From: Malacoraja senta
Lineage: Eukaryota
Reading direction: 5' to 3'
Assembly (NCBI GenBank): GCA_038087875.1
Contig: CM075989.1
Location: 2,604,001-2,668,000, forward strand
Length of the DNA: 64,000 bases
Part shown: positions 2,429-58,500 of the stretch, in pieces
Numbering within the stretch: the first letter of the stretch is position 1
Layout: the number at the start of each line of letters is the position of its first letter
Program-made: the position numbers and the translations under genes
The notes under the pieces: model-generated
The model's database searches: none
What the model saw: the letters and a program-made list of their open reading frames with translations, nothing else
What the model was told of the DNA's origin: nothing

Positions 2429-2948
2429 TCTATATTACTAAAAATAAGATCTTGACCACTTTTGACTCACTGCGATGTGATTTCCGAGAGAATGCCACCA
2501 CTTACGGCCGTCATCTTTGGCTACCTCGCTCAGAGCCCCCCTCCGCCGGAATAGACTGGAGGATTTATCTCATCGATCAAAAATCAGAGAGATATTAATG
2601 TTTTAAAAAATTCGCCATTCTCTCTGCTGCCCCCGCTGGCGGCAGGGGGGAGGGACTATAAAACCCGGAAATGTGGTGGCTCACTCAGAGGGTGACGTCA
2701 AGAGGGCGCTGAGTGCAGGCGCCGTTGAATAATTCAGGAGAGCTGCTCTGTCTATGGTGAGTGTGTTTGTTGGATGTTATTTAAAGCACATTTTTGCTTC
2801 AGCACCAGCAGCCTCTACAGGAGGCTTTAAACATTCGTTTTACACACTGTATATTCAACACGTTCTGAAGTTACTTGGCATTTTAGTATTGGGTGAGTGT
2901 GTGTGAGTGAATGAGTCTGTGTGTGTGTATGTGTGTGTGTGAATGAAT

Positions 2949-3002
<54 letters not shown>

Positions 3003-3780
3003 GCGTGTGTGTGTGTGTGTGTGTGTGCGTGTGTGTGTGTGTGAATGAGTCTGTGTGTGTGTGTGTATGTGTGTATGTGTGAATGAGTGTGTGTGAATGA
3101 GTTTGTGTGTGTGTGTGTGTGTGAATGAGTCTGTGTGTGTGAGAGTGAGTGTGTGTGTGTGTGTCTGTTTGAGTGAGTCTGTGTGTGTGTGAATGAGTAT
3201 GTGTGTGTGTGTGTGTGTGAGTCTGTGTGTGTGTGTGAATGAGTCTGTGTGTGTGTGAATGAGTCTGTGAGTGTGTGTGTGTGTGAATGAGAAGGAGCAG
3301 AATGGGGGGGGTGAAGGGAGGAGGGGTGACCGAGTGAACTGCCAGCGTACCAGGCATGGGTGACTGCACTGCCAGCCCACGAGCCGTAAGTGAACTGCCA
3401 GCCCACCAGCCGTAAGTGACTGAACTGCCAGCCAAATAATCCATTCAGTCCACCCTCTCCCCCTTCTCTCAAACAGTCTGTCACCTGTTTTGTGCAGAAT
3501 TTCTGGCAGTTTCTCAGCTGCCAGCCTGCCAGGTCCGAGTGACTGTACTGCCAGGCCTCAGTGACTGAGCTGCCTGCCCAAGAATCCATTCGGCCCACAA
3601 TGTCTATACTAGCCCTCTGGAAACCAGTACCTTCAGCCCACAACACCCATACTAGTGCAACAGAAAGCCCCCCCCCCCCACTGGCGAGCAATATTGGAAT
3701 TGGTAGAGAGGTGTAATATTGTGTTGGGTGACCAGCGCTCCCGTGTGATGCTAGGACCCAACGGGTCCCACTTAGTCTAG
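2429..3780 (+). mobile_element. Non-autonomous Helitron (copy A)
   Basis: 5' TC (tctatattactaaaa) after A; 3' hairpin ggaccc-aac-gggtcc just upstream of terminal CTAG (3777-3780) followed by T; no TSD. Confidence 0.8.
2893..3290. repeat. Compound (GT)n/GAATGAGT microsatellite inside Helitron A
   Basis: Directly visible; source of the spurious HT-repeat ORFs. Confidence 0.95.
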
Positions 3781-26435: not shown

Positions 26436-27409
26436 TGAGTCTGTGGCATGATGATAAATAAACCATTCAAACCATTGAAATCAGACTCCTGCTAAGAATA
26501 GGCAAGCAATTGGACTAATTGAGAATGCCCATGGTGCAGGGAACATCTGGACACAGTGAAGATTAACATCTGGGTTGGAAAGAGAGGAGGAATTGGTATC
26601 CATGATCCATCCCTCAAAATCATAAATACCTCAGGGTAAGGAGGAGAGAAACCAAGGGAAACATTCCCTCTCCCTTGACTCTCAGTCTTAAGGTCTCGAC
26701 CCAAAACGTCACCTATCCCTTTTCTCCAGGGATGATAGCTGACCCACTGAGTTACTCCAGCATTTTGTTTCTATCTTCGAAGAATAAAAACACTACCTTT
26801 ATCAAGAATGAAATGCGATTTACATCACTTTCAAATTAGAAATTTAATGCTATGCAGATTAAGAAATTAAAAATAAATTAACATTTTAGGGGGTTAACTG
26901 TTTTACAAAATTACATTTGAATTCATTTGAAGATTATTGAAAGTGGCTGCACTTTCTAATTCATCAGCAGAATCGACTGTGAACCGTGGTTGGAAGTGGC
27001 AGAACTGGTCAGTTCTCCCGAAGACCACACTGGTACAGACTCTCACGGTAAGATTCATCATCACATCCAAGAGACGAGGGCGAGATGTACTGTCCTAACA
27101 TTGTGTGTTTTCCACCTGTGTGTGATCAGATCATTCATGGCAATGGGATATCTACTCAGGGCTCATTTCATAGAAGTAATTTCAAAGTTTATTGGAACTT
27201 AATTGAAATCTTTACTCCACTGTGATCAGCCATTCTCATTGGTAACACTTTATTTAGATTAAAGGCGCACTGACTTTGGAACAACATTTACGGGTGGTTT
27301 CAACACTTAGACCACCTGAGGTGAACTTCTATATTCAATTATCAGCATTCTTTTCCCGTGGACACAATATAGTACGCTGCAGAATTAGTTGATGTGAATT
27401 AATTGTAAA

Positions 27410-27476
27410 TTTTACTTCGGAGTCACGTGAGTGACTACGTGAAGAGCCCGCCAGGGCGCATGCGCGACATATCTTC
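27410..27476 (+). repeat. DIRS left inverted terminal repeat
   Basis: ttttacttcggagtcacgtgagtgactacgtgaaga...gcgcatgcgcgacatatcttc; distal part is the reverse complement of 32704-32744. Confidence 0.9.
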
Positions 27477-27607
27477 TAGCGCATTGAGAGCGACAGGCGG
27501 GGAGGAGCGTTCCCCGCAGCGGTAAGCTGAAACCCGGAGACCAACAGGTAAGTTACTTACTCTGAGGTCGTTTTTCGGGTGTCTTTCTGTTCACAGGAAG
27601 ACCAACG

Positions 27608-29396
27608 ATGGACAGGACCCGTACCAAGTCCAAACGGGCCGCTAAAAGGCCTGTCTCACGAGTCTGCGGTCATTGGCGGCGAAACGGGAAGAATCTGCCA
27701 CCATAGACCGCGCACTCGTGAGAACGCACAATTCCGGGGCCGTGCGGCGGTGTTCCCAACACCACACGGTGCTAAAATAAAACCTACACTGTTGAAAAAT
27801 ATTTTCCTACCGCACAGCCTCCACCAGTGATGCACGAGTGCGGCACGGCCGCCCGCACGGGCCGCCGCCAGTGTGGCTCGAACGCCGTGCGTCAAACTTG
27901 TACTGCCACAGCCTCCGCCAGTGAGGCACGTGTGCGGCACGGCCGCAGGCACAGCCACCGCTACAGCGCCGCGATCAGGACGGCCGCCGCCACTGCCGCC
28001 GCTCGTGAGTCACGTGCGGCGGGCCGACGTCATCGCAGTCGGCCCGCCCTTTTTTTAACTTACCGCAAGCACGTGGGACCAGCCGTATTTGAATCACTCG
28101 GCCCCCGCGCAGCATCCGTGCGGCGCTCCCGTGGATAGGCTCGGCGCTCTCGCCGTTGCCGTGCGGTCCACTCTACAGGCGAAGCCGCGCTTCACCGCCG
28201 ATGACCGCAAACACGTAAGACAGAGCCTTTAGAAACTGGCTGAGGAGGACTGCGAGAGTACCGGGAGCCAGCAGCGGCCGACTGCAGCACCGCAATCTTT
28301 GCGATCAGCGGTCTCTGTCCCGGCACCTGTGCAGCCTGGGTCGCCACAGGCTGACAGGAACGCCAAAAGGAGGGACACGCTCATGGACTCCGATGTATCG
28401 GGCCATGACCAAACGGCGCCGGCAGACAGCGACAGTAGTCGCATTTCACGTCTGGAGCGGCTAGTGGAGCAATTGCTTCACCGTGACACACTCCGGGAGA
28501 AGGAGTCATGTCACTACGGGCCTCCTAGGACGCCCATGGCAGTACCTTTTTCAGGGCTGCACAATGTATCTCCCTCGACAGAGGGGAGCATTGGGAATCA
28601 TTTCTGGGCTGACCCCGAACAAGGGTTGGCTGAAGATACCTCAAGTGTGCTGGGGGTGCCAGAAGAGAAGATGCTGGGAATGGTGAAAAAGTTTACGGTG
28701 CCTCCACAGTCAGGGCAGCCGCTGAAACAACAACTAGCAGCCAGCATTGACTACCTATCAACCCATCAATTGCAGGAACAGGCGCTCAATAAAACCACTG
28801 CAAAATACCTGGCACCAGGGAACTGTATCACACTGAATGTCCCAGCAGTGAATCCCTCCATCTGGGGACATATTGGTGCAGGTGTAAGGGCACAGGAGGT
28901 ACAAATGCAGAAAATCCTCAAACTTCTAGCTTCGGGGATTACAGCATTTGCCCGGTCGGTGGATGACACGGCAATGACAGAGGCACAGCAAGATACGCTG
29001 GCGATGCTCTGCAATACACAGTTCGAGATCAACTGTTTCCGAAAGAACTCCATCCGCCCAGCCTTGAACCCCAAATTTGTGGCTCTGTGTAAGACCAACA
29101 CCACACCGCCGCCAATTTTGTTATTTGGGGGCAACCTGTCCAAACAGGTTAAAGACCTGGATGAAGAGGCAGAAGCCGCCGGGCTCATCAAGGCATCGGG
29201 GAAAATACCTCGGCGACAGCACCCCTACGCATCCACCAGCAGGCCACGTCACGTCGAAGCTGGTGAAAGCTCGAAGGCCGCAGCTCAAAGACAAAGGTCT
29301 TTTTTAGACCGCGGCCCAGAGCGACCTTCGTGGAAGATGCGCCAACCCCGAATTCCAGCACCTCAACCGGCCAAGAAACAGAAGAAAAAGAGATGA
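27608..29396 (+). pseudogene. gag: DIRS ORF1 (gag-like), interrupted by the MITE at 27646-28228
   Basis: 365-aa open frame 28299-29396 (LFGGNL motif, basic C-terminus) extends upstream to 28233; removing the MITE and one TSD joins it in frame to ATG 27608. Confidence 0.75.
27646..28228. mobile_element. PIF/Harbinger-type MITE nested in DIRS gag
   Basis: Imperfect ~40-bp TIR ctgtctcacgagtctgcggtcattggcggcgaa vs ctgtcttacgtgtttgcggtcatcggcggtgaa; flanks TAA / TTA. Confidence 0.75.
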
Positions 29397-31344
29397 ACAC
29401 CCCACTGGTAACCATGGAGGTAGGTGGGTCTGGTTCCTCCCAGGACTTAGCGGGTGCAATGGATACACTTGTTGGTGGTAGGTTACACTGGTTTAGAGAG
29501 GCATGGAGATCAATAACCTCTGATTCTTATATACTGCATAGTGTTCAAGGGTATGAAATTGAATTAGAAAACAAACGCCTTCCTCCGGTTCAGCATGCGC
29601 CCATCAGATCATTTATTCGATCACAACAAGAGAAGTTGGATGGTCATGCTGAAATTAAGAGGCTTTATACTAAGGGTGTAATTGAGAGATCTCAACATGA
29701 CTCTCGAGAATTTGTGTCAAACATTTTCACAAAAAAGAAAAAAGATGGTGGATGTCGCATCATTATTCATTTAAGACAATTGAACACATTTGTGCAGTAT
29801 ACTCACTTCAAAATGGAAATCTTTGTCACGGCCAAACAATTGATTTCCGAAGGCCCCATGGCATGCATCGATTTAAAAGATGCATACTGTTCGGTGCCTA
29901 TACACAAGGATCACCGCCGATATCTGAAGTTTAACGGGATGGGGCAGCTTTGGCAGTACAAAGCACTACCTAATGGATTGACCTCAGCCCCCAGACTATT
30001 CACCAAATTACTGAAACCAGCTCTGTCGTTTCTTCGGAAACAAAAACATATTATCATGGCGTATTTAGATGACATACTAATCGTGGGTAAAACCTACAAA
30101 TTAGCTAAATTAGCTGTTTCAGTTACCATAGGTCTATTTGAGAAACTGGGGTTTATCATATATCCAGATAAATCAAAGTTAACACCATCCACGACTATGG
30201 ACTATTTGGGATTCACCATTAATTCAGTTCACATGACTGTGACTTTACCTAAGGGAAAGGCAACTGAATTAATGGAAGTTTGCAGCAACCTTGCTGTCAT
30301 CAGTCAACCATCTATCAGACAAGTAGCAAGGGTAATTGGCAAAATCGTAGCTGCTTTTCCAGCGACACACTTTGGACCTTTGCACTATCAAAATTTACAG
30401 AGAGCAAAGGTGCATGCACTTAAACATCATGCTGGTCATTTCGATAGACCAATGCAATTACCAACAAAAGCTATTTTGGAACTGCGATGGTGGACACATA
30501 ACATTCGGCGTTTCTTCAGCTCCATTATTATTAGCAACCCGTCAGTTGTATTACAGACTGATGCCAGCGCTCAAGGTTGGGGTGCCACCAACACCATCTC
30601 CAGTTGTGGGGGCAGATGGGATGCGCATGAATCATCTTTGCTTTATACACTTGGTATAAATTATTTGGAAATGTTGGGAGCATTCTATGGTTTGAAGGCG
30701 TACTGTTAAAAAATGCATCATTTGCATGTTCGCCTGCAAATAGATATACCACTGCGGTGGCTTATATTAATCGCATGGGTGGAATCAGATCGATATCATG
30801 TGATGATCTGGCCAATTCAATCTGGCAATGATGTATTCGGAGAAACATTTGGATATCTGCTATTTACCTACCAGGTAAACTTAATTCAGTGGCAGACACC
30901 AGGTCACGGAAATTTAATGACAACACTGAATGGATGTTGGACCCCAAAGTGTTTGCAGACATCATAGCAAGATATGGAACACCAGATATCGATCTATTTG
31001 CATCTAGGCTTAACCACCAGTTGCCGACATATGTTGCGTGGGAACCAGACCCTGGGGCAGCAGCGATGGACGCATTTTCGCTGCACTGGGGAAATTTGTT
31101 TTTCTATGCATTTCCCCCCTTCTGCCTCATCAGTCGGGTCTTACGCAAAATACAACAAGACTCTGCGTCAGGTATTTTGGTAGTACCCGACTGTCCTACC
31201 CAGCCATGGTTCCCTGTGGTTCTCGACATGGTTTCAGAACCATGTATGGCCATCACTAAAAGACCAGATTTGATGGTCCATCCTGTAACTGGCGAAAGTC
31301 ATCCATGCCATGACAGGACTAATCTGTTAATTTGCAGAATTTAA
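29330..31344 (+). pseudogene. pol: DIRS ORF2: reverse transcriptase, RNase H and N6-adenine methyltransferase-like domain
   Basis: IDLKDAY, LPNGLTSAPRLFTK, YLDD, TDASAQGWGA, INYLEM, then DLFASRLN...YAFPPF; broken by stop at 30707-30709, a frameshift near 30745 and a further stop near 30830. Confidence 0.9.
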
Positions 31345-32315
31345 ACAGGCCACTTCTGGATTTTGGACTGACGGACCGAACCATCAACATGATCACGGCG
31401 GCACAAAGAGAGTCTACCAGGAAACAGTACCTGACTTACATCAGGAAATGGGAACGTTATTGTTCCAGGACTAATGTTGAGTATAACTCAGCCATTGTAA
31501 CTAATGTCCTGGAGTTCCTCTCTAACCTTCATTTCGATGAAAGGCTTAGATACAGTGCCATCAACAATGCCAGGAGTGCCCTATTGACCTATTTGTGGCG
31601 GGGATTCGACCACCATTCACTGGGATCTCACCCCTTGGTTTCCAAACTAATGAGGGGTATATTCAACTCGAATCTCCCTGGGGGCAGATACTCTCACATT
31701 TGGGATGTGAGTATTGTGTTGACGTTGCTTCGGGGTTGGTCACCAGCAACGTCCCTGTCCCTGGAGAAACTTACCCTTAAATTGGTAATGCTGATGGCAC
31801 TGGTCTCGGCCCAGCGGGTGCAATTGCTACACAAGTTATGACTGGACTCGATGGCCAAATGGACATATGATATAACATTTTATATTCATGAATTGGTAAA
31901 ACAAAACAGGCCAGGGTTATCCGGTCTTAAACTAGAGTTTCGGGCATACCCTACAGATGTTCGCTTATGCGTTATGACACATCTGTTACTTTACATTGAG
32001 CTAACAGCTAAAGTAAGAGGCCATGAATTGGCACTATTAGTGAGCCACAAAAGACCTCACAATAGGGTATCGGCCCAAACAATATCTAGGTGGCTTCGAC
32101 AGGTTTTGGGGGCAGCAGTGGTTGATACTGATATTTACAAATCTCATTCCACCAGGGCTGCAGCCACATCGACAGCACGGCACATGGAGGTTCCAATGGA
32201 TCACATCTTGGGTACGGCAGGATGGTCCAGGGAGAAGACCTTCCAAGAATTTTATAATAAGCCAGTTGCCAAGCCTGTGACTTTTGCAGAGACTATTTTG
32301 AGTTCTGTTTTATAA
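31332..32315 (+). pseudogene. DIRS ORF3: tyrosine recombinase
   Basis: N-terminal SAM-like region (STRKQYLTYIRKW), SAQR, HSTRAAATS, AGWS...TFQEFY catalytic motifs; one in-frame TGA at 31839-31841. Confidence 0.9.
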
Positions 32316-32488
32316 TACGCCCCGAAGGACAGGGGTCATTATTATAATTTGTGTTAATAGATCACTTATTGTTTCTTTTTAACAATTGATTCATGTCTGG
32401 ATTTGTTAACATACTTCCTCCTCAGTCTACGACAGCAGGGTGCGAAGCATGGACTCGTTCCATGGCATGAAATCACAGAGCTTTAAAA

Positions 32489-32601
32489 TCTTCACGTAGT
32501 CACTCACGTGACTCCGAAGTAAAATAGTAAGATTAAACGAGAACTTACCAGTTTGAAGTTTGATCTTTATTTTATGAGGAGTTACGTTGAGGGATTACGT
32601 G
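32489..32601 (+). repeat. DIRS internal complementary region (ICR)
   Basis: 32489-32524 is the reverse complement of 27410-27445; 32525-32601 is the reverse complement of 32739-32815. Confidence 0.9.
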
Positions 32602-32891
32602 CCCTCCACGCCCACCCTCTATTATAAAGGTCAGCTGGTATTCAAGTTCTTATCTTACTATGTTAATTCGACTACCGTATCTGTGATTTCACACCACTGC
32701 TTTGAAGATATGTCGCGCATGCGCCCTGGCAGGTTCTTCACGTAATCCCTCAACGTAACTCCTCATAAAATAAAGATCAAACTTCAAACTGGTAAGTTCT
32801 CATTTAATCTTACTATTAAATTGTGCTCTTTCTTAGGCTATGCATGGACAGATCTTATCTGGAGTAAACTGTGATACTTTAGCGATTTGTG

Positions 32892-33108
32892 TAAGAAGGA
32901 ACTGCAGATGCTGGTTTACACTGAAGATAGACACAAAATGCTGGAGTAACTCAGCGGGTCAGGCAGCATCTCTGGAGAGAAGGACATCTCGGGTCGAGAC
33001 CGAGTCCGATGGAGTGTGATGAAGGGTCTCGACCTGAAACGTCACCTATTCCTTTTCTCCAGAGATGCTGCTTGACCCACCGAGTTACTACCGCATTCTG
33101 CATCTACC
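32892..33108. mobile_element. Penelope-derived hairpin element
   Basis: aagaaggaactgcagatgctgg end plus inverted arms with gatgaagggtctcgacctgaaacgtc. Confidence 0.7.
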
Positions 33109-40099: not shown

Positions 40100-40900
40100 G
40101 CTCTCATCAGTCAGGGCATTGAGTATAAAAGATAGACACAACATGCTGGAGTAACGCAGTGGGTCAGGCAACATCTCTGGACAAAAAAAGAGTAGGTGAC
40201 GTTCCAGGTTGGAACGTATCTTCAGTTGAAGAAGGGTTCTGACCCAAAACATCACCCGAAATATCACTCCAGCAATTTGTGTCTATCTTCAGTATAAACC
40301 AGCATCTGCAGTTCCTTCTTACACATTGAATGTACTGTAAAAGTTGGGAAGTTATGTTATAGTTGTGCAAGATGTAGGTAAGGCCACATCATGTTCACTT
40401 TTGGTCACCTTGTTACAGGAAGTATGTCATTAAGCCAGATAGAGTGTAGAGGAGATTTGCGAGGATGTTGCCAAGATTCGAGGGCCTGAATTATCGGGAA
40501 AAGTTGGGCAGGTTAGGACGTTATTCCTAGGAGGGAAGGAGGCTAAGGGGTGATCTTATAGAGGTGTATAAAATTATGAGAATAAATAAGGTGAATGCCG
40601 TCCTTTAGTCAGGGTTGGGGGAATCAAGAACCATATACACCATGGGTTTAAGATGAGAGTGGCAAGATTTAATAGGAACCTGATAGGCAACTTATCACTC
40701 AGATGGTGATGGGTATATGGAATGAGGAGGGAGTTGAGGCAGGTACTATAACAACATTTAAAAGATACCTGGCCAGGTACCTGGAAAGGAAAGGTTTGAG
40801 GGATTTGGACCAAACACAGACAAATGGCTTAGATGGGGCATCTTGGTCAGCATGGATGAGGTGGGCCGAAGGGACTGATTCCATGCTGTGTGACTATGAC
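40100..40900 (+). mobile_element. Decayed CR1 fragment interrupted by a Penelope-derived hairpin (about 40131-40322)
   Basis: cagggcattgagtat...gttgggaagttatgtt CR1 sequence split by a gatagacacaacatgctgg hairpin. Confidence 0.65.
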
Positions 40901-40976
40901 TATTGCCTTCTAACCCACATACATCCTCTGCTGACTAGAATCATCTGCTTCTTTCTTAATCAGTTCTGATAAAGGA

Positions 40977-41230
40977 TAGTAAGATTAAATGAGAACTTAC
41001 CAGTTTGAAGTTTGATCTTTATTTTATGAGGAGTTACGTTGGTGATTACGTGCCCTCCACTCCCAACCCTCTTTCATAAAGGTCAGCTGGAACTTCTAAA
41101 ATGTACTTGTTTTTCCTATGTTACTTCATTATTGGTGTTTTGTGATTTCACACCGCTGCTTTGAAGATTGACGCGCATGCGCCCTGACGGGTCTTCTTCA
41201 CGTAGTCACTCACGTGACTCCGAAGTAAAA
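40977..41230 (-). mobile_element. DIRS-derived 254-bp mini-element with both termini and no ORFs
   Basis: Minus strand begins ttttacttcggagtcacgtgag (left terminus) and ends ...ttaatcttacta (right terminus); interior is homologous to the spacer 32602-32703. Confidence 0.85.
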
Positions 41231-41844
41231 TCCTTTCCCTGAAACATTAACTCCTATTCTACTGTGGATGCTGCCTGATTTATTATTTCCCAGCAGTTTT
41301 TGTTGTTATTTCAGAATTCCAACAACCACAGTTTGTTTTAATTTTTTATTTCCTATGAGGAGTTTCAATGCGTTTATCTAAATGTGTTAAGGTTTTTAGA
41401 CGTAATGGGGCAGCTTTCTGTTTACCTGGAAGATGGACACAAAATGGTGGAGTAACTCAGCGGGTCAGGCAGTATCTCTGGAGAAAGGTGAATAGGTGAC
41501 GTTCTGGGACGAGACCCTTCTTCAGACTGAGAGTCGGGGGAGAGGGAAACGAGAGATATAGAAGGTAAGATGTGCAGAAAGCAATGATGGTGTTCACACT
41601 GCGGAGGTGGTAAATCTCACTCTAGATAACCCAGCCGTGTGCAGGGGTTTTAATCAGGAAAATAGAGAATGAAAATCCATCAAAAGAATTACCGATGGGC
41701 AGTGACGGATCTGGAAACCTGCACACAAATGTTCTATCCCAGTTTAATTTCCTTTACAACAACACAGAGTGATTCTTCAGAGTGAACAGGTTTCTGTCCC
41801 ATGTCCCCATCTGACTTTTCGAAGCTCTTTAAGACCTCCTCTTT

Positions 41845-57238: not shown

Positions 57239-57989
57239 CTCAGCGTACATTGCAAGAGGTCTCGCCCTTCCCCCATGATATGAATCACTGAGGTCTGGCC
57301 TTAACACCCGGCCGCTGCAGTTTGGAGAATATATTAGTGCTGTGAAAAATTCAAGAGTGTTTCTGCACTTGAGTCCCCCAGCATGGGTGAAGTGGGCAAT
57401 GATGTGAACTGCGTGCTGCTAGACTGATACATCATGACATTCCCGACTCCCCTACAACACCACTCCACTCTCCCCCGACCCCAGGAACAAGCAGCAATGC
57501 TGAATACACACTCGGCAGCCCTCACTTGATGGCCCCTGGTGTCTCCCGTGCATCATGGCCAACATGTCAAGACTGTCTGAAAAATATTCAAATGAGCTGG
57601 ATTAGCGTTATTGGGCAGAGCCAGTTCTTACATTCAGGGAACACAGACATTTATCAGTTTATAACATCATCCAATGTTCCAGCTCAGAAGGCCTCTGCTT
57701 GCATCTTATCGCTCCACGCAATGAATAACCACTCTCTCCAGTTCCTGCAAAATCACATTCTCTTTCCTTCAATTTGCTTATTTGCTTTAAAAGGAATTAT
57801 AGACTTTGCTTCAATGACATTTTGTGCTTGAGAGGAGCTTTATTTTAACTATCCCTTGTGTCGAGGATTTTAAAGAAATCCAGGTGAATTTTTTTAGTTG
57901 TAATTATCCCATGTTTATGCCCTGTGGTGATCATCTTGTCAAACAGAGGGAAGTAGTGTGTGGTAAACACCATTTATCCCATCACACCG

Positions 57990-58500
57990 AAGATAGACAC
58001 TAAATGCTGGAGTAACTCAGCGGGTTACGCAGCATCTCTGGAGAAAAGGAATGGGTGACATTTCTAGTCGTGACCATTCTTCAGACTGAGAGCCATGGGA
58101 TAGGGAGTCTAGAGATATGGAAGGGTGAGGTGTGAAAACAGCAGATCAAAGCAGATGGTGATAAGGAAATGTAGAATGGTTCATTGTTAGCTGAGGGGGG
58201 GGGGGGTGACAATGAGGCATACAACCAGTAAACTTAAGATGAAGGACATTGAAACTAGTCAGAAAAATATGATGAGGGAGGGACAGAGAAAGAAGGGATG
58301 AAAGAGTTACTTGAATTTAGAGAAATCAATATTCATACCGCTGGGCAGTACGCTGCTCAAGTGAATTAGGAGGCGCTGTTCCTTCAATTTACTCTAATAG
58401 TGGAGGAGGTCCAGGACAGAAAAGTCAGCATAGGAATGGTAAGGGGAGTTAAAGTGTTTAGCAACTAGGAGATCACGTAGGCCTAGGTTGAATGAGCGGA
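57990..58500 (-). mobile_element. Penelope-like element 3' fragment
   Basis: Reverse complement of the terminal repeat plus LLVAKHFNSPYHSYADFSVL. Confidence 0.7.

What the first reader, a model, noticed from the sequence alone, without database searches (positions are those of the whole stretch)
40977..41230. Rearranged 254-bp DIRS mini-element: a solo-LTR equivalent or reintegrated minicircle
Seen: the full DIRS can be written a-c-ORFs-a'b'-s-c'-b, where a and b are the termini, c is the ITR core, a'b' is the ICR and s is the spacer. This locus reads b'-s-c'-a' on the + strand, which is a-c-s'-b on the minus strand. It has both authentic ends (ttttacttcgg... and ...cttacta) around an inverted spacer, with no ORFs and no ICR. 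It is not a simple truncation, because a' follows c' here but lies upstream of b' in the parent; the switch falls in the shared tcttcacgta. The junctions ggAT|agtaag and gtaaaAT|cctt share only AT with the circle junction (aaaATag) and rejoin to ctgataaaggATcctttccctgaaac, with no long TSD. The spacer differs from the 27-kb copy while the termini are nearly identical, so it derives from a different family member. Established: DIRS1 elements integrate as circles via a tyrosine recombinase. Inference, two routes: (i) ITR-ITR inversion followed by deletion between the resulting direct repeats, leaving a 'solo' DIRS footprint; (ii) the ICR-to-ITR loop circularised and was integrated by YR as a non-autonomous mini-element. 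I do not know of a description of this structure, but I could not search the literature.
Basis: partly seen in the sequence, partly recalled or inferred. Interest (0 to 1): 0.8.

Follow-up and report, generated by a model that had tools for sequence, protein, structure and literature searches.

The report
Recurrent 250-bp DIRS mini-element
This 254-bp insert is a gene-less miniature of a DIRS1-type jumping gene, one of at least 22 precise copies in the genome, and it was likely made as a small DNA circle and likely pasted in by the family's own recombinase, which would make it a natural minimal substrate for studying how these elements integrate.

Summary
Window 40977-41230 reads right-ICR, spacer, right-ITR core, left-ICR (b'-s-c'-a'). 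That is both true DIRS ends around an inverted spacer, with no ORFs and no contiguous ICR.

It is not unique. A junction pattern found 49 loci, against 0 in the reversed control. Of these, 22 are independent stand-alone minis of 240-262 bp. All 22 start at the ICR junction, and their flanks follow the same AA|T rule as full elements.

Contigs from two other organisms join 40975 directly to 41230. The orthologous site there is empty, and the insert has no target duplication beyond AT.

Minis are scattered among full-length 3' ends in at least five subfamilies, so they arise recurrently. Two copies at different loci are 100% identical.

The intermediates needed for an in-situ "solo" route are almost absent:
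- 0 clean flipped loops, against 1088 normal ICRs.
- 1 reciprocal ITR recombinant among 31 hits.
- 0 "big" remnants among 23 hits.

Best reading (about 0.6): a ~250-bp unit is circularised by a one-sided template switch at the conserved box, then integrated at its ICR junction by the tyrosine recombinase. No circle was observed.

Five literature searches found no description of this structure; the closest analogue is SIRE/VIPER. The scan earlier noted other protein-less DIRS-type and mini-Crypton elements elsewhere, but not this structure.

The parts
40977..41230 (-). The 254-bp DIRS mini-element. On the + strand it reads rICR(b')-spacer-rITR core(c')-lICR(a'). On the - strand it reads left terminus a-c, inverted spacer, right terminus b.
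   Evidence: Contigs with the empty orthologous site lack exactly these 254 bp.
40978..41052 (+). b', a copy of the right ICR. It is the complement of the right extension plus the divergent part of the right ITR. It begins right after the shared AT.
   Evidence: 76/78 identity to the reverse complement of window 32739-32816, and collinear with 32526-32601.
41053..41162 (+). Spacer s, in the same orientation as in a full element's 3' region and therefore inverted relative to the termini.
   Evidence: Collinear alignment with 32602-32703, with indels. 96% identity over positions 1-245 to the normal 3' end L002.
41163..41194 (+). c', the conserved ITR core. It is identical in the left and right ITRs of this subfamily.
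   Evidence: In one search, 99 of the 100 listed left ITRs carry the same core state as right ITRs.
41195..41204 (+). The conserved 10-nt box TCTTCACGTA, shared by both ITRs and both ICRs. The sequence switches here from right-ITR type to left-ICR type.
   Evidence: A box of this kind is described by Piednoel et al. 2011 (PMC3266345, passages read).
41195..41231 (+). a', a copy of the left ICR and the complement of the left terminus. Its last bases AT are shared with the target.
   Evidence: 37/37 identity to window 32489-32525.
27409..32816 (+). Full-length but degenerate DIRS1-like element of a sister subfamily, used as the anatomical reference. Its parts are: left ITR 27409-27476; lICR 32489-32525; rICR 32526-32601; spacer 32602-32703; right ITR 32704-32771, whose divergent part 32735-32771 resembles lICR; right extension 32772-32816.
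   Evidence: Pfam on its ORFs gives RVT_1 at E 1e-19, with weak below-cutoff hits to Dam methyltransferase and Phage_int_SAM_4, in the order RT-MT-YR.

Best explanation
The locus is a protein-less mini-derivative of a DIRS1-like retrotransposon, consisting of right ICR, spacer, right-ITR core and left ICR. It was likely produced outside the chromosome as a ~250-bp circular unit and likely inserted by the family's tyrosine recombinase at its ICR junction.

Shown by the sequence:
- The mini equals exactly one turn of the segment that lies between two direct repeats in a full element. These repeats are the left ICR (a') and the a'-like divergent start of the right ITR, both of which begin with the box TCTTCACGTA.
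- That turn is opened precisely at the ICR circular junction (AAT).
- The mini sits in the genome without a target duplication, following the same AA|T flank rule as full elements.

Inferred steps:
(1) During DIRS DNA synthesis, a 3' end finishing in c'-box is completed on the wrong template (a / left ITR / lICR complement) and not on the right ICR. This one-sided template switch joins c' to a'.
(2) The resulting unit closes into a circle whose junction is the ICR itself.
(3) The recombinase, supplied in trans by full elements, recombines this junction with an AAT-like target.

Minis are made again and again from different full-length lineages and do not copy themselves.
For: Anatomy.

Family: 49 junction hits against 0 in the control. 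Reading the flanks of all 49 gives:
- 23 hits that are 22 independent complete minis
- 3 truncated minis
- 10 'class B' elements
- 2 composite loci
- 9 normal right ends
- 2 bare left ITRs

Ends and flanks: all 22 minis begin TAG(T/G)AAG and end GTAAAA. The base before the mini is A in 19/22 and the two bases before are AA in 16/22; the base after is T in 22/22. Normal right ends show A at position -1 in 52/55 and at -2 in 53/55.

Clean insertion:
- The orthologous site is empty in two other organisms.
- A neighbouring tandem-repeat unit gives the empty site for L037.
- 5 of 5 paralogous repeat copies are uninterrupted at the L039 site, and 2 of them read identically across it.

Recurrent origin:
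- In the 76-row tree the mini label needs 13 changes, at least 7 of them forced by well-supported branches, and the window copy pairs with a normal element.
- In the L034 subfamily, 9 minis need 8 changes and show no clustering: 268 of 500 shuffles are as low.

Youth: L038 and L048, at different loci, are 262/262 identical.

One-sided switching is common in this family:
- Elements with the right end completed as c'-a' (class B, left end a-c in L054 and L056).
- The mirror form b'-c...c'-b (L165/L186).
- a/a* hybrid left ends, 6 of 31 hits.
- Hairpin run-on palindromes L083, L087 and L088.

Intermediates of the in-situ routes are scarce.

Against: - No circle was observed, and no read data bear on one.
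- An in-situ collapse of a full insertion would leave the same ends, flanks and empty orthologous site. The argument against it therefore rests on the scarcity of intermediates, counted with exact-match patterns that are lower bounds and favour some subfamilies.
- The core c is identical in left and right ITRs. The switch can thus only be placed within about 40 nt, and its polarity cannot be read.
- Star-like trees cannot exclude some mini-to-mini copying.
- Class B locus L042 has b' fragments at its left end, as a decayed inversion form would.
- The circle model of DIRS integration is itself untested. Malicki 2020 found mostly linear single-stranded cDNA.
- The filled allele in the window's own species was not confirmed with reads.
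Confidence: 0.6

Rival explanations
1. In-situ 'solo' footprint. A full DIRS was inserted here. Recombination between its inverted ITR cores (c/c'), or a flip of the b'/b hairpin loop, then created direct repeats, and a second recombination deleted everything between them, leaving a-c-s'-b.
For: This route gives exactly the observed order, the inherited termini, the flanks and the empty orthologous site. L042 has a b'-type left end together with an s-c'-a' right end. The caecilian study reports a higher terminal-to-internal ratio for DIRS than expected and attributes it to ectopic recombination (PMC8498967, one passage read).
Against: - This is a two-step route through 40-107-bp repeats, so intermediates should outnumber the products. 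I find 22 minis against few intermediates.
- There are 0 clean flipped-loop elements among 6 candidate hits, compared with 1088 normal ICRs.
- There is 1 b'-c-internal left junction among 31 hits, and that element has a normal right end.
- There are 0 ORF-a'|flank remnants among 23 hits.
- Minis are as young as the youngest full copies, and two are identical at different loci.
Confidence: 0.15
2. Recombinase resolution of an inverted circle. A c/c' inversion in the full-length circle puts the terminal junction and the ICR in direct orientation. The tyrosine recombinase then splits the circle into a mini circle (b'-s-c'-a') and a big circle (b'-c-ORFs-a'), and each integrates.
For: It explains why the mini is bounded exactly by the ICR junction, and it uses only the element's own enzyme (anatomy).
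Against: The partner product is missing. There are 0 elements ending ORF-a'|flank among 23 hits, all of which are ordinary ICRs with a point change or a small deletion. The only b'-c-ORFs left end found, L165, belongs to an element with a normal c'-b right end.
Confidence: 0.1
3. The mini lineage moves by itself as DNA. Integrated minis are excised by the recombinase as circles and re-inserted, Crypton-like, so the copies descend from other minis.
For: L038 and L048 are identical. Both ends carry half-sites that would regenerate the ICR junction on excision.
Against: There are no mini-specific clades, and each subfamily's minis sit among full-length copies. No excision footprint or within-species polymorphism was examined.
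Confidence: 0.1
4. Assembly artefact or chance resemblance.
For: The filled junction in the window's own species was not confirmed with reads, because the read-laying run did not complete.
Against: There are 22 independent loci with the same exact boundaries and different flanks, 0 control hits, and an exact 254-bp difference from contigs of two other organisms.
Confidence: 0.01

Closest known systems
DIRS1-like retrotransposons (ITR + ICR type; Cappello model; anatomy as in Piednoel et al. 2011, PMC3266345)
   Same: Both termini are the same, as is the short junction core (AAT/ATT here), the absence of a target duplication, and the 10-nt box shared by ITRs and ICRs. The parent family carries RT, a weak methyltransferase-like stretch and a weak recombinase-like stretch.
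   Different: The mini has no ORFs and no contiguous ICR. The spacer is inverted relative to the termini, and the right terminus lacks the conserved ITR core next to it. The mini cannot rebuild its ends from an RNA copy.
SIRE, the short non-autonomous derivative of the tyrosine-recombinase retroelement VIPER in Trypanosoma cruzi (Vazquez 1999/2000, as cited in PMC6681497; one passage read)
   Same: SIRE is a short interspersed element built only from terminal-repeat parts of a YR retroelement, and whether it is a mobile element or a remnant is likewise an open question.
   Different: VIPER has split direct repeats, not ITR + ICR. SIRE is described as 5' part + 30 bp + 3' part, which is a deletion-like layout. 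Here the layout is a circular permutation of an internal unit. I read no SIRE sequence.
Solo LTRs, TRIM and LARD elements of LTR retrotransposons
   Same: They are gene-less leftovers or hitch-hikers made of terminal repeats, and are often more numerous than expected.
   Different: Solo LTRs form by one crossover between long direct repeats and keep a target duplication. A normal DIRS has no direct terminal repeats, and the two-step equivalent is not supported here.
Non-autonomous Crypton DNA transposons (YR-mobilised; Kojima and Jurka 2011, PMC3212892, seen only in search listings)
   Same: Movement is proposed to go through a circle recombined by a tyrosine recombinase at a short core, with no target duplication.
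   Different: Cryptons have no RT stage. Here the source is a retroelement, and the minis appear to be by-products of its DNA synthesis.

Membership tests
DIRS1-like retrotransposon (complete, replication-competent member) | Termini identical to the family's left and right termini | tested here: met
   Left terminus 37/37 (via lICR) and 64/70 to the left ITR; right terminus 76/78.
DIRS1-like retrotransposon (complete, replication-competent member) | Contiguous ICR (lICR + rICR) inside the element | tested here: not met
   a' and b' lie at opposite ends of the mini and are joined only if the mini is circularised.
DIRS1-like retrotransposon (complete, replication-competent member) | ORFs for Gag, RT/RNase H(/MT) and tyrosine recombinase | tested here: not met
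   The 254 bp are made only of ICR, spacer and ITR sequence. The parent copy has RVT_1 at 1e-19 and weak MT and YR hits.
DIRS1-like retrotransposon (complete, replication-competent member) | Insertion without target duplication at a short core shared with the circular junction | tested here: met
   The empty orthologous site keeps one AT. The AA|T rule holds in 16-22 of 22 minis and in 52-53 of 55 normal right ends.
Solo-LTR-type in-situ remnant | Derived at the site of a full element by recombination between its repeats; intermediates and full or solo orthologues exist | tested here: inconclusive
   Intermediates are nearly absent: 0 clean among 6 candidates against 1088 normal ICRs, 1 of 31, and 0 of 23. 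The orthologous sites seen are empty, not full. The end product would nevertheless look the same.
MITE (DDE transposon derivative) | Terminal inverted repeats and a fixed-length target site duplication | tested here: not met
   There is no duplication beyond the shared AT. The ends are a and b, which are not inverted copies of each other.
Trans-mobilised non-autonomous YR element (SIRE-like or Crypton-like) | Independent insertions that depend on a recombinase encoded elsewhere | not testable with these tools
   The 22 loci with recombinase-type junctions are consistent with this. Dependence on the enzyme needs an experiment.

The most novel reading that the evidence does not exclude
The minis are captured replication intermediates. 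A short plus-strand DNA starts at the purine-rich end of the left ICR, exactly at the junction. It runs through rICR, spacer and ITR core, is completed on the left ITR, and is then closed on the ICR splint and integrated. If so, these 250-bp elements mark the so far unknown plus-strand start site of DIRS elements. They also define the complete cis-requirements for circularisation and recombinase integration, and they may go on moving as Crypton-like DNA circles.
Probability: 0.15. Interest if true: 0.8.

Novelty: new variant of a known kind. Interest (0 to 1): 0.55.

Why it matters
How DIRS elements integrate and rebuild their ends is still mostly a 1985 model, with one experimental study. This family provides natural experiments on that model.

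- In every one of 22 minis the DNA is opened at the ICR junction. This supports the idea that this short core is the recombinase crossover site.
- The minis suggest that about 250 bp may be enough for integration.
- The accompanying zoo of forms shows that 3' ends ending in the conserved box choose among several templates. The forms are ITR-homogenised elements, hairpin run-on palindromes and a/a* hybrids.

There is also a practical point. Such minis inflate counts of DIRS 'terminal' sequence and could be misread as evidence of ectopic deletion, or annotated as unknown short repeats.

Tried and rejected
- RNA evidence: no RNA holder is listed among the sequencing runs. This says nothing either way.
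- Read check of the filled junction in the window's own species and in two further organisms: the same read-laying request was sent ten times and never answered.
- Placing the switch point with a diagnostic site inside the ITR core: one left ITR (L122) differed from right ITRs, but 99 of the 100 listed left ITRs do not. The site is private and the test is void.
- Variable crossover in L066, L070 and L072 (CACGTAAT...): this cannot be told apart from a point change or a subfamily variant. Not used.
- One search used a wrong gap length and its zero is void. One search is the corrected search.
- T at position -10 upstream occurs in 16/22 minis against 18/55 normal right ends. It is unexplained and may be chance after looking at many positions.
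- Single-strand fold of the mini (z -3.2): no informative structure.
- Left end of class B locus L069: no DIRS sequence within 5.2 kb upstream, so that copy is 5'-truncated and uninformative.
- Earlier scan notes: nothing on this genome. Two notes on other genomes concern related but different elements.
- Literature: searches, plus term look-ups in PMC3266345, PMC9210276, PMC8969392, PMC12477816 and PMC5753468, found no description of a DIRS1-type mini with this layout. Poulter and Goodwin 2005 and Repbase entries could not be read, so a prior description there is possible.

Full report
**What is there**

The window carries a 5.4-kb DIRS1-like element at 27409-32816. Its layout is the textbook one:
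- left ITR: a, 37 nt, plus core c
- ORFs
- left ICR a' (32489-32525)
- right ICR b' (32526-32601)
- a spacer of about 100 nt
- right ITR core c', followed by a 37-nt stretch about 80% like a' (32735-32771)
- a 45-nt right extension

Its ORFs give RVT_1 (E 1e-19) plus weak, below-cutoff methyltransferase-like and recombinase N-terminal hits, in the order RT-MT-YR. This matches the anatomy that Piednoel et al. 2011 describe: divergent and conserved ITR parts, two ICRs, a right extension, a 3-bp circular junction, and a box of at least 10 nt shared by both ITRs and both ICRs (PMC3266345, passages read). Here the box is TCTTCACGTA.

**The finding**

Window 40977-41230 reads b'-s-c'-a' on the + strand.
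- It is collinear with 32524-32771 (217/260).
- It starts like the reverse complement of the right end (76/78).
- It ends like the reverse complement of the left ITR (64/70) and like the left ICR (37/37).

On the minus strand it therefore has the true left terminus and the true right terminus around an inverted spacer. It has no ORF and no contiguous ICR.

**It is a family**

With the whole mini as query, 38 of the 40 scored genome matches are ordinary 3' ends (a'-b'-s-c'-b); the other two are the locus itself and L018. A pattern spanning the mini-specific s-c'-a' junction finds 23 exact and 49 near-exact places, with 0 in the reversed control. I read the flanks of all 49:

| Class | Hits |
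|---|---|
| Complete stand-alone minis (L031 = L032 is a duplicate, so 22 independent loci) | 23 |
| Truncated or irregular minis | 3 |
| 'Class B' (ORF 3' end-a'-b'-s-c'-a' then flank; 4 independent flanks) | 10 |
| Composite loci (L040, L061) | 2 |
| Normal right ends let in by the mismatches | 9 |
| Bare left ITRs | 2 |

- The 22 minis are 240-262 bp long.
- All 22 begin at the first base after the ICR junction and end at its last base.
- The base before is A in 19/22 and the two bases before are AA in 16/22. The base after is T in 22/22.
- Normal right ends show A at -1 in 52/55 and A at -2 in 53/55.

The minis therefore carry the same junction signature as full elements. This fits a short AAT core shared by element and target.

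**It is an insertion**

Two Logan contigs from two other organisms join 40894-40975 directly to 41230-41457/8. They are X3 record 9 (334 nt) and X5 record 24 (331 nt). Both lack exactly 254 bp and keep one AT. Their flanks differ from the window at 10 of 310 positions, so they come from related genomes and not from the same one. A third contig (X4 record 23) starts its match at 41230 and probably shows the same thing.

Two other minis also have recognisable empty sites:
- L037 lies in a tandem repeat whose next unit reads straight through.
- L039 lies in a dispersed repeat of which 5 of 5 paralogues are uninterrupted at that point, 2 of them identical across it.

I could not confirm the filled junction with reads of the window's own species, because the request did not complete.

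**Origin: many times, from many masters**

In a tree of the b'-s-c' segment (76 rows), minis fall into at least five subfamilies together with normal elements. The mini label needs 13 changes, at least 7 of them forced by well-supported branches. The window copy pairs with normal element L002.

One clade looked mini-only, but that was a sampling effect. After adding 23 normal elements of that subfamily, its 9 minis need 8 changes and are no more clustered than shuffled labels (268 of 500 shuffles as low).

Two minis at different loci are 262/262 identical. Against 1088 exact normal ICR contexts, minis make up about 2% of the family's 3' modules.

**Which route?**

The mini equals the unit that lies between two direct repeats of a full element, namely a' and the a'-like start of the right ITR. 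This unit is closed on itself and opened at the ICR junction. I tested the products that each route predicts.

| Predicted product | Result |
|---|---|
| Flipped-loop full elements (needed for a hairpin-flip plus deletion route) | 6 candidate hits against 1088 normal. None is a clean flipped loop: three are giant palindromes ORFs-a'-b'-loop-b-a-ORFs', one has both c and c' in the loop, and two are duplicates of one truncated copy. |
| Reciprocal junction of a c/c' inversion (right-ITR-type end + core + left internal sequence) | 31 hits: 24 are ordinary left ends with one base change, 6 are a/a* hybrids, and 1 (L165) is b'-c-internal. That element has a normal c'-b right end, so it is the mirror image of class B and not an inversion. 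|
| 'Big' partner product ORF-a'\|flank | 23 hits, all of them ordinary ICRs with a changed junction base or a small deletion, so 0 real cases. |
| Reciprocal unit deletion (ORF-a'/a'-like hybrid-extension) | 1 hit (L089). |

Class B elements with a verified left end (L054, L056) begin with a normal a-c. L042 begins with two short b' fragments. L069 is 5'-truncated.

These counts fit one-sided completion of a 3' end on the wrong template. They do not fit reciprocal recombination, and they do not fit a slow two-step decay at the insertion site.

This fits the Cappello model as summarised by Malicki et al. 2020 (PMC7192593, introduction and discussion read). In that model the ends are rebuilt by ITR-on-ITR copying and then by annealing to the ICR. 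The same paper reports experimentally that the ICR is needed after first-strand synthesis and that the proteins act in trans.

**What remains inferred**

- No circle has been seen.
- An in-situ product would look identical.
- The ITR core is the same on both sides, so the switch cannot be placed more precisely than about 40 nt.
- The pattern counts are lower bounds and are biased towards some subfamilies.

I put about 0.6 on the extrachromosomal unit plus recombinase reading, 0.15 on in-situ collapse, and 0.1 each on resolution of an inverted circle and on self-propagation as DNA.

**Comparison with what is known**

Five full-text searches and term look-ups in five papers found no description of this layout.

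The nearest analogue is SIRE, the short derivative of the recombinase retroelement VIPER, whose status as mobile element or remnant is also open (PMC6681497, one passage read). A caecilian genome study found more DIRS terminal sequence relative to internal sequence than expected and explained it by ectopic recombination (PMC8498967, one passage read). Minis of this kind would be another source of that excess.

Poulter and Goodwin 2005 and Repbase were not readable here. Earlier notes of this scan describe a protein-less 5.3-kb DIRS1-type element and mini-Cryptons with an internal junction copy in other genomes. These are related ideas, not this structure, and I did not test them.

**Verdict**

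The locus is a real, recurrent, previously undescribed (as far as I could search) variant of a known kind. It is of moderate interest to transposon specialists, mainly as a natural minimal substrate for the DIRS recombinase and as evidence for template choice at the conserved box.

Noticed in passing
L083, L087, L088 (G000 C1:151780045, C326:46091, C1299:548): Giant palindromes of the form ORFs-a'-b'-loop-b-a-ORFs'. The 3' hairpin of a DIRS copy is extended on both arms into inverted copies of the coding region, as if the right end had primed on the right ICR and run on.
   Followed up: partly
L043/L054, L046/L056 group (7 copies sharing one flank), L042, L069: 'Class B' elements whose right end is c'-a' (a perfect copy of the left ITR) and not c'-b. 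The left end is a normal a-c in two verified cases, b' fragments in L042, and truncated in L069.
   Followed up: partly
L165/L186 (G000 C1:337166000-337173300): The mirror form: an element whose left end is b'-c (copied from the right ITR) with a normal right end. This gives 107-nt perfect ITRs.
   Followed up: partly
L156/L157, L159, L161, L171, L184: Left termini that are hybrids. The outer 20 nt are of left-terminus type and the inner 17 nt of right-ITR type. This is consistent with the inner part being copied from the other ITR and the outer part from the ICR.
   Followed up: no
L040/L057 (G000 C5:49221000-49229500): A complete element directly abutting a mini, so that the two meet in a perfect circle-type junction (tandem full + mini).
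   Followed up: partly
L009 and L019 (G000 C10:31160220 and C10:31263391; same flank): A stand-alone b'-loop-b hairpin that starts exactly at the ICR junction after an A-run. It is either a second kind of short derivative or a 5' truncation.
   Followed up: no
L089 (G000 C16:10050978): A full-length 3' end that lacks the b'-s-c' unit and has an a'/a'-like hybrid in its place. This is the reciprocal deletion of the mini unit, and only one was found.
   Followed up: partly
flanks of the 22 minis: T at position -10 upstream of the b' end in 16/22 minis, against 18/55 normal right ends. This may be chance.
   Followed up: partly
window 2817-3265: A long array of an 8-10-bp tandem repeat (39 overlapping copies reported).
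   Followed up: no
window-wide, e.g. 32918-32984, 41424-41490, 57984-58050: Many copies of short interspersed repeats (families D3-D10). One starts about 190 bp downstream of the mini. Read depth there is in the millions in all four runs laid.
   Followed up: no
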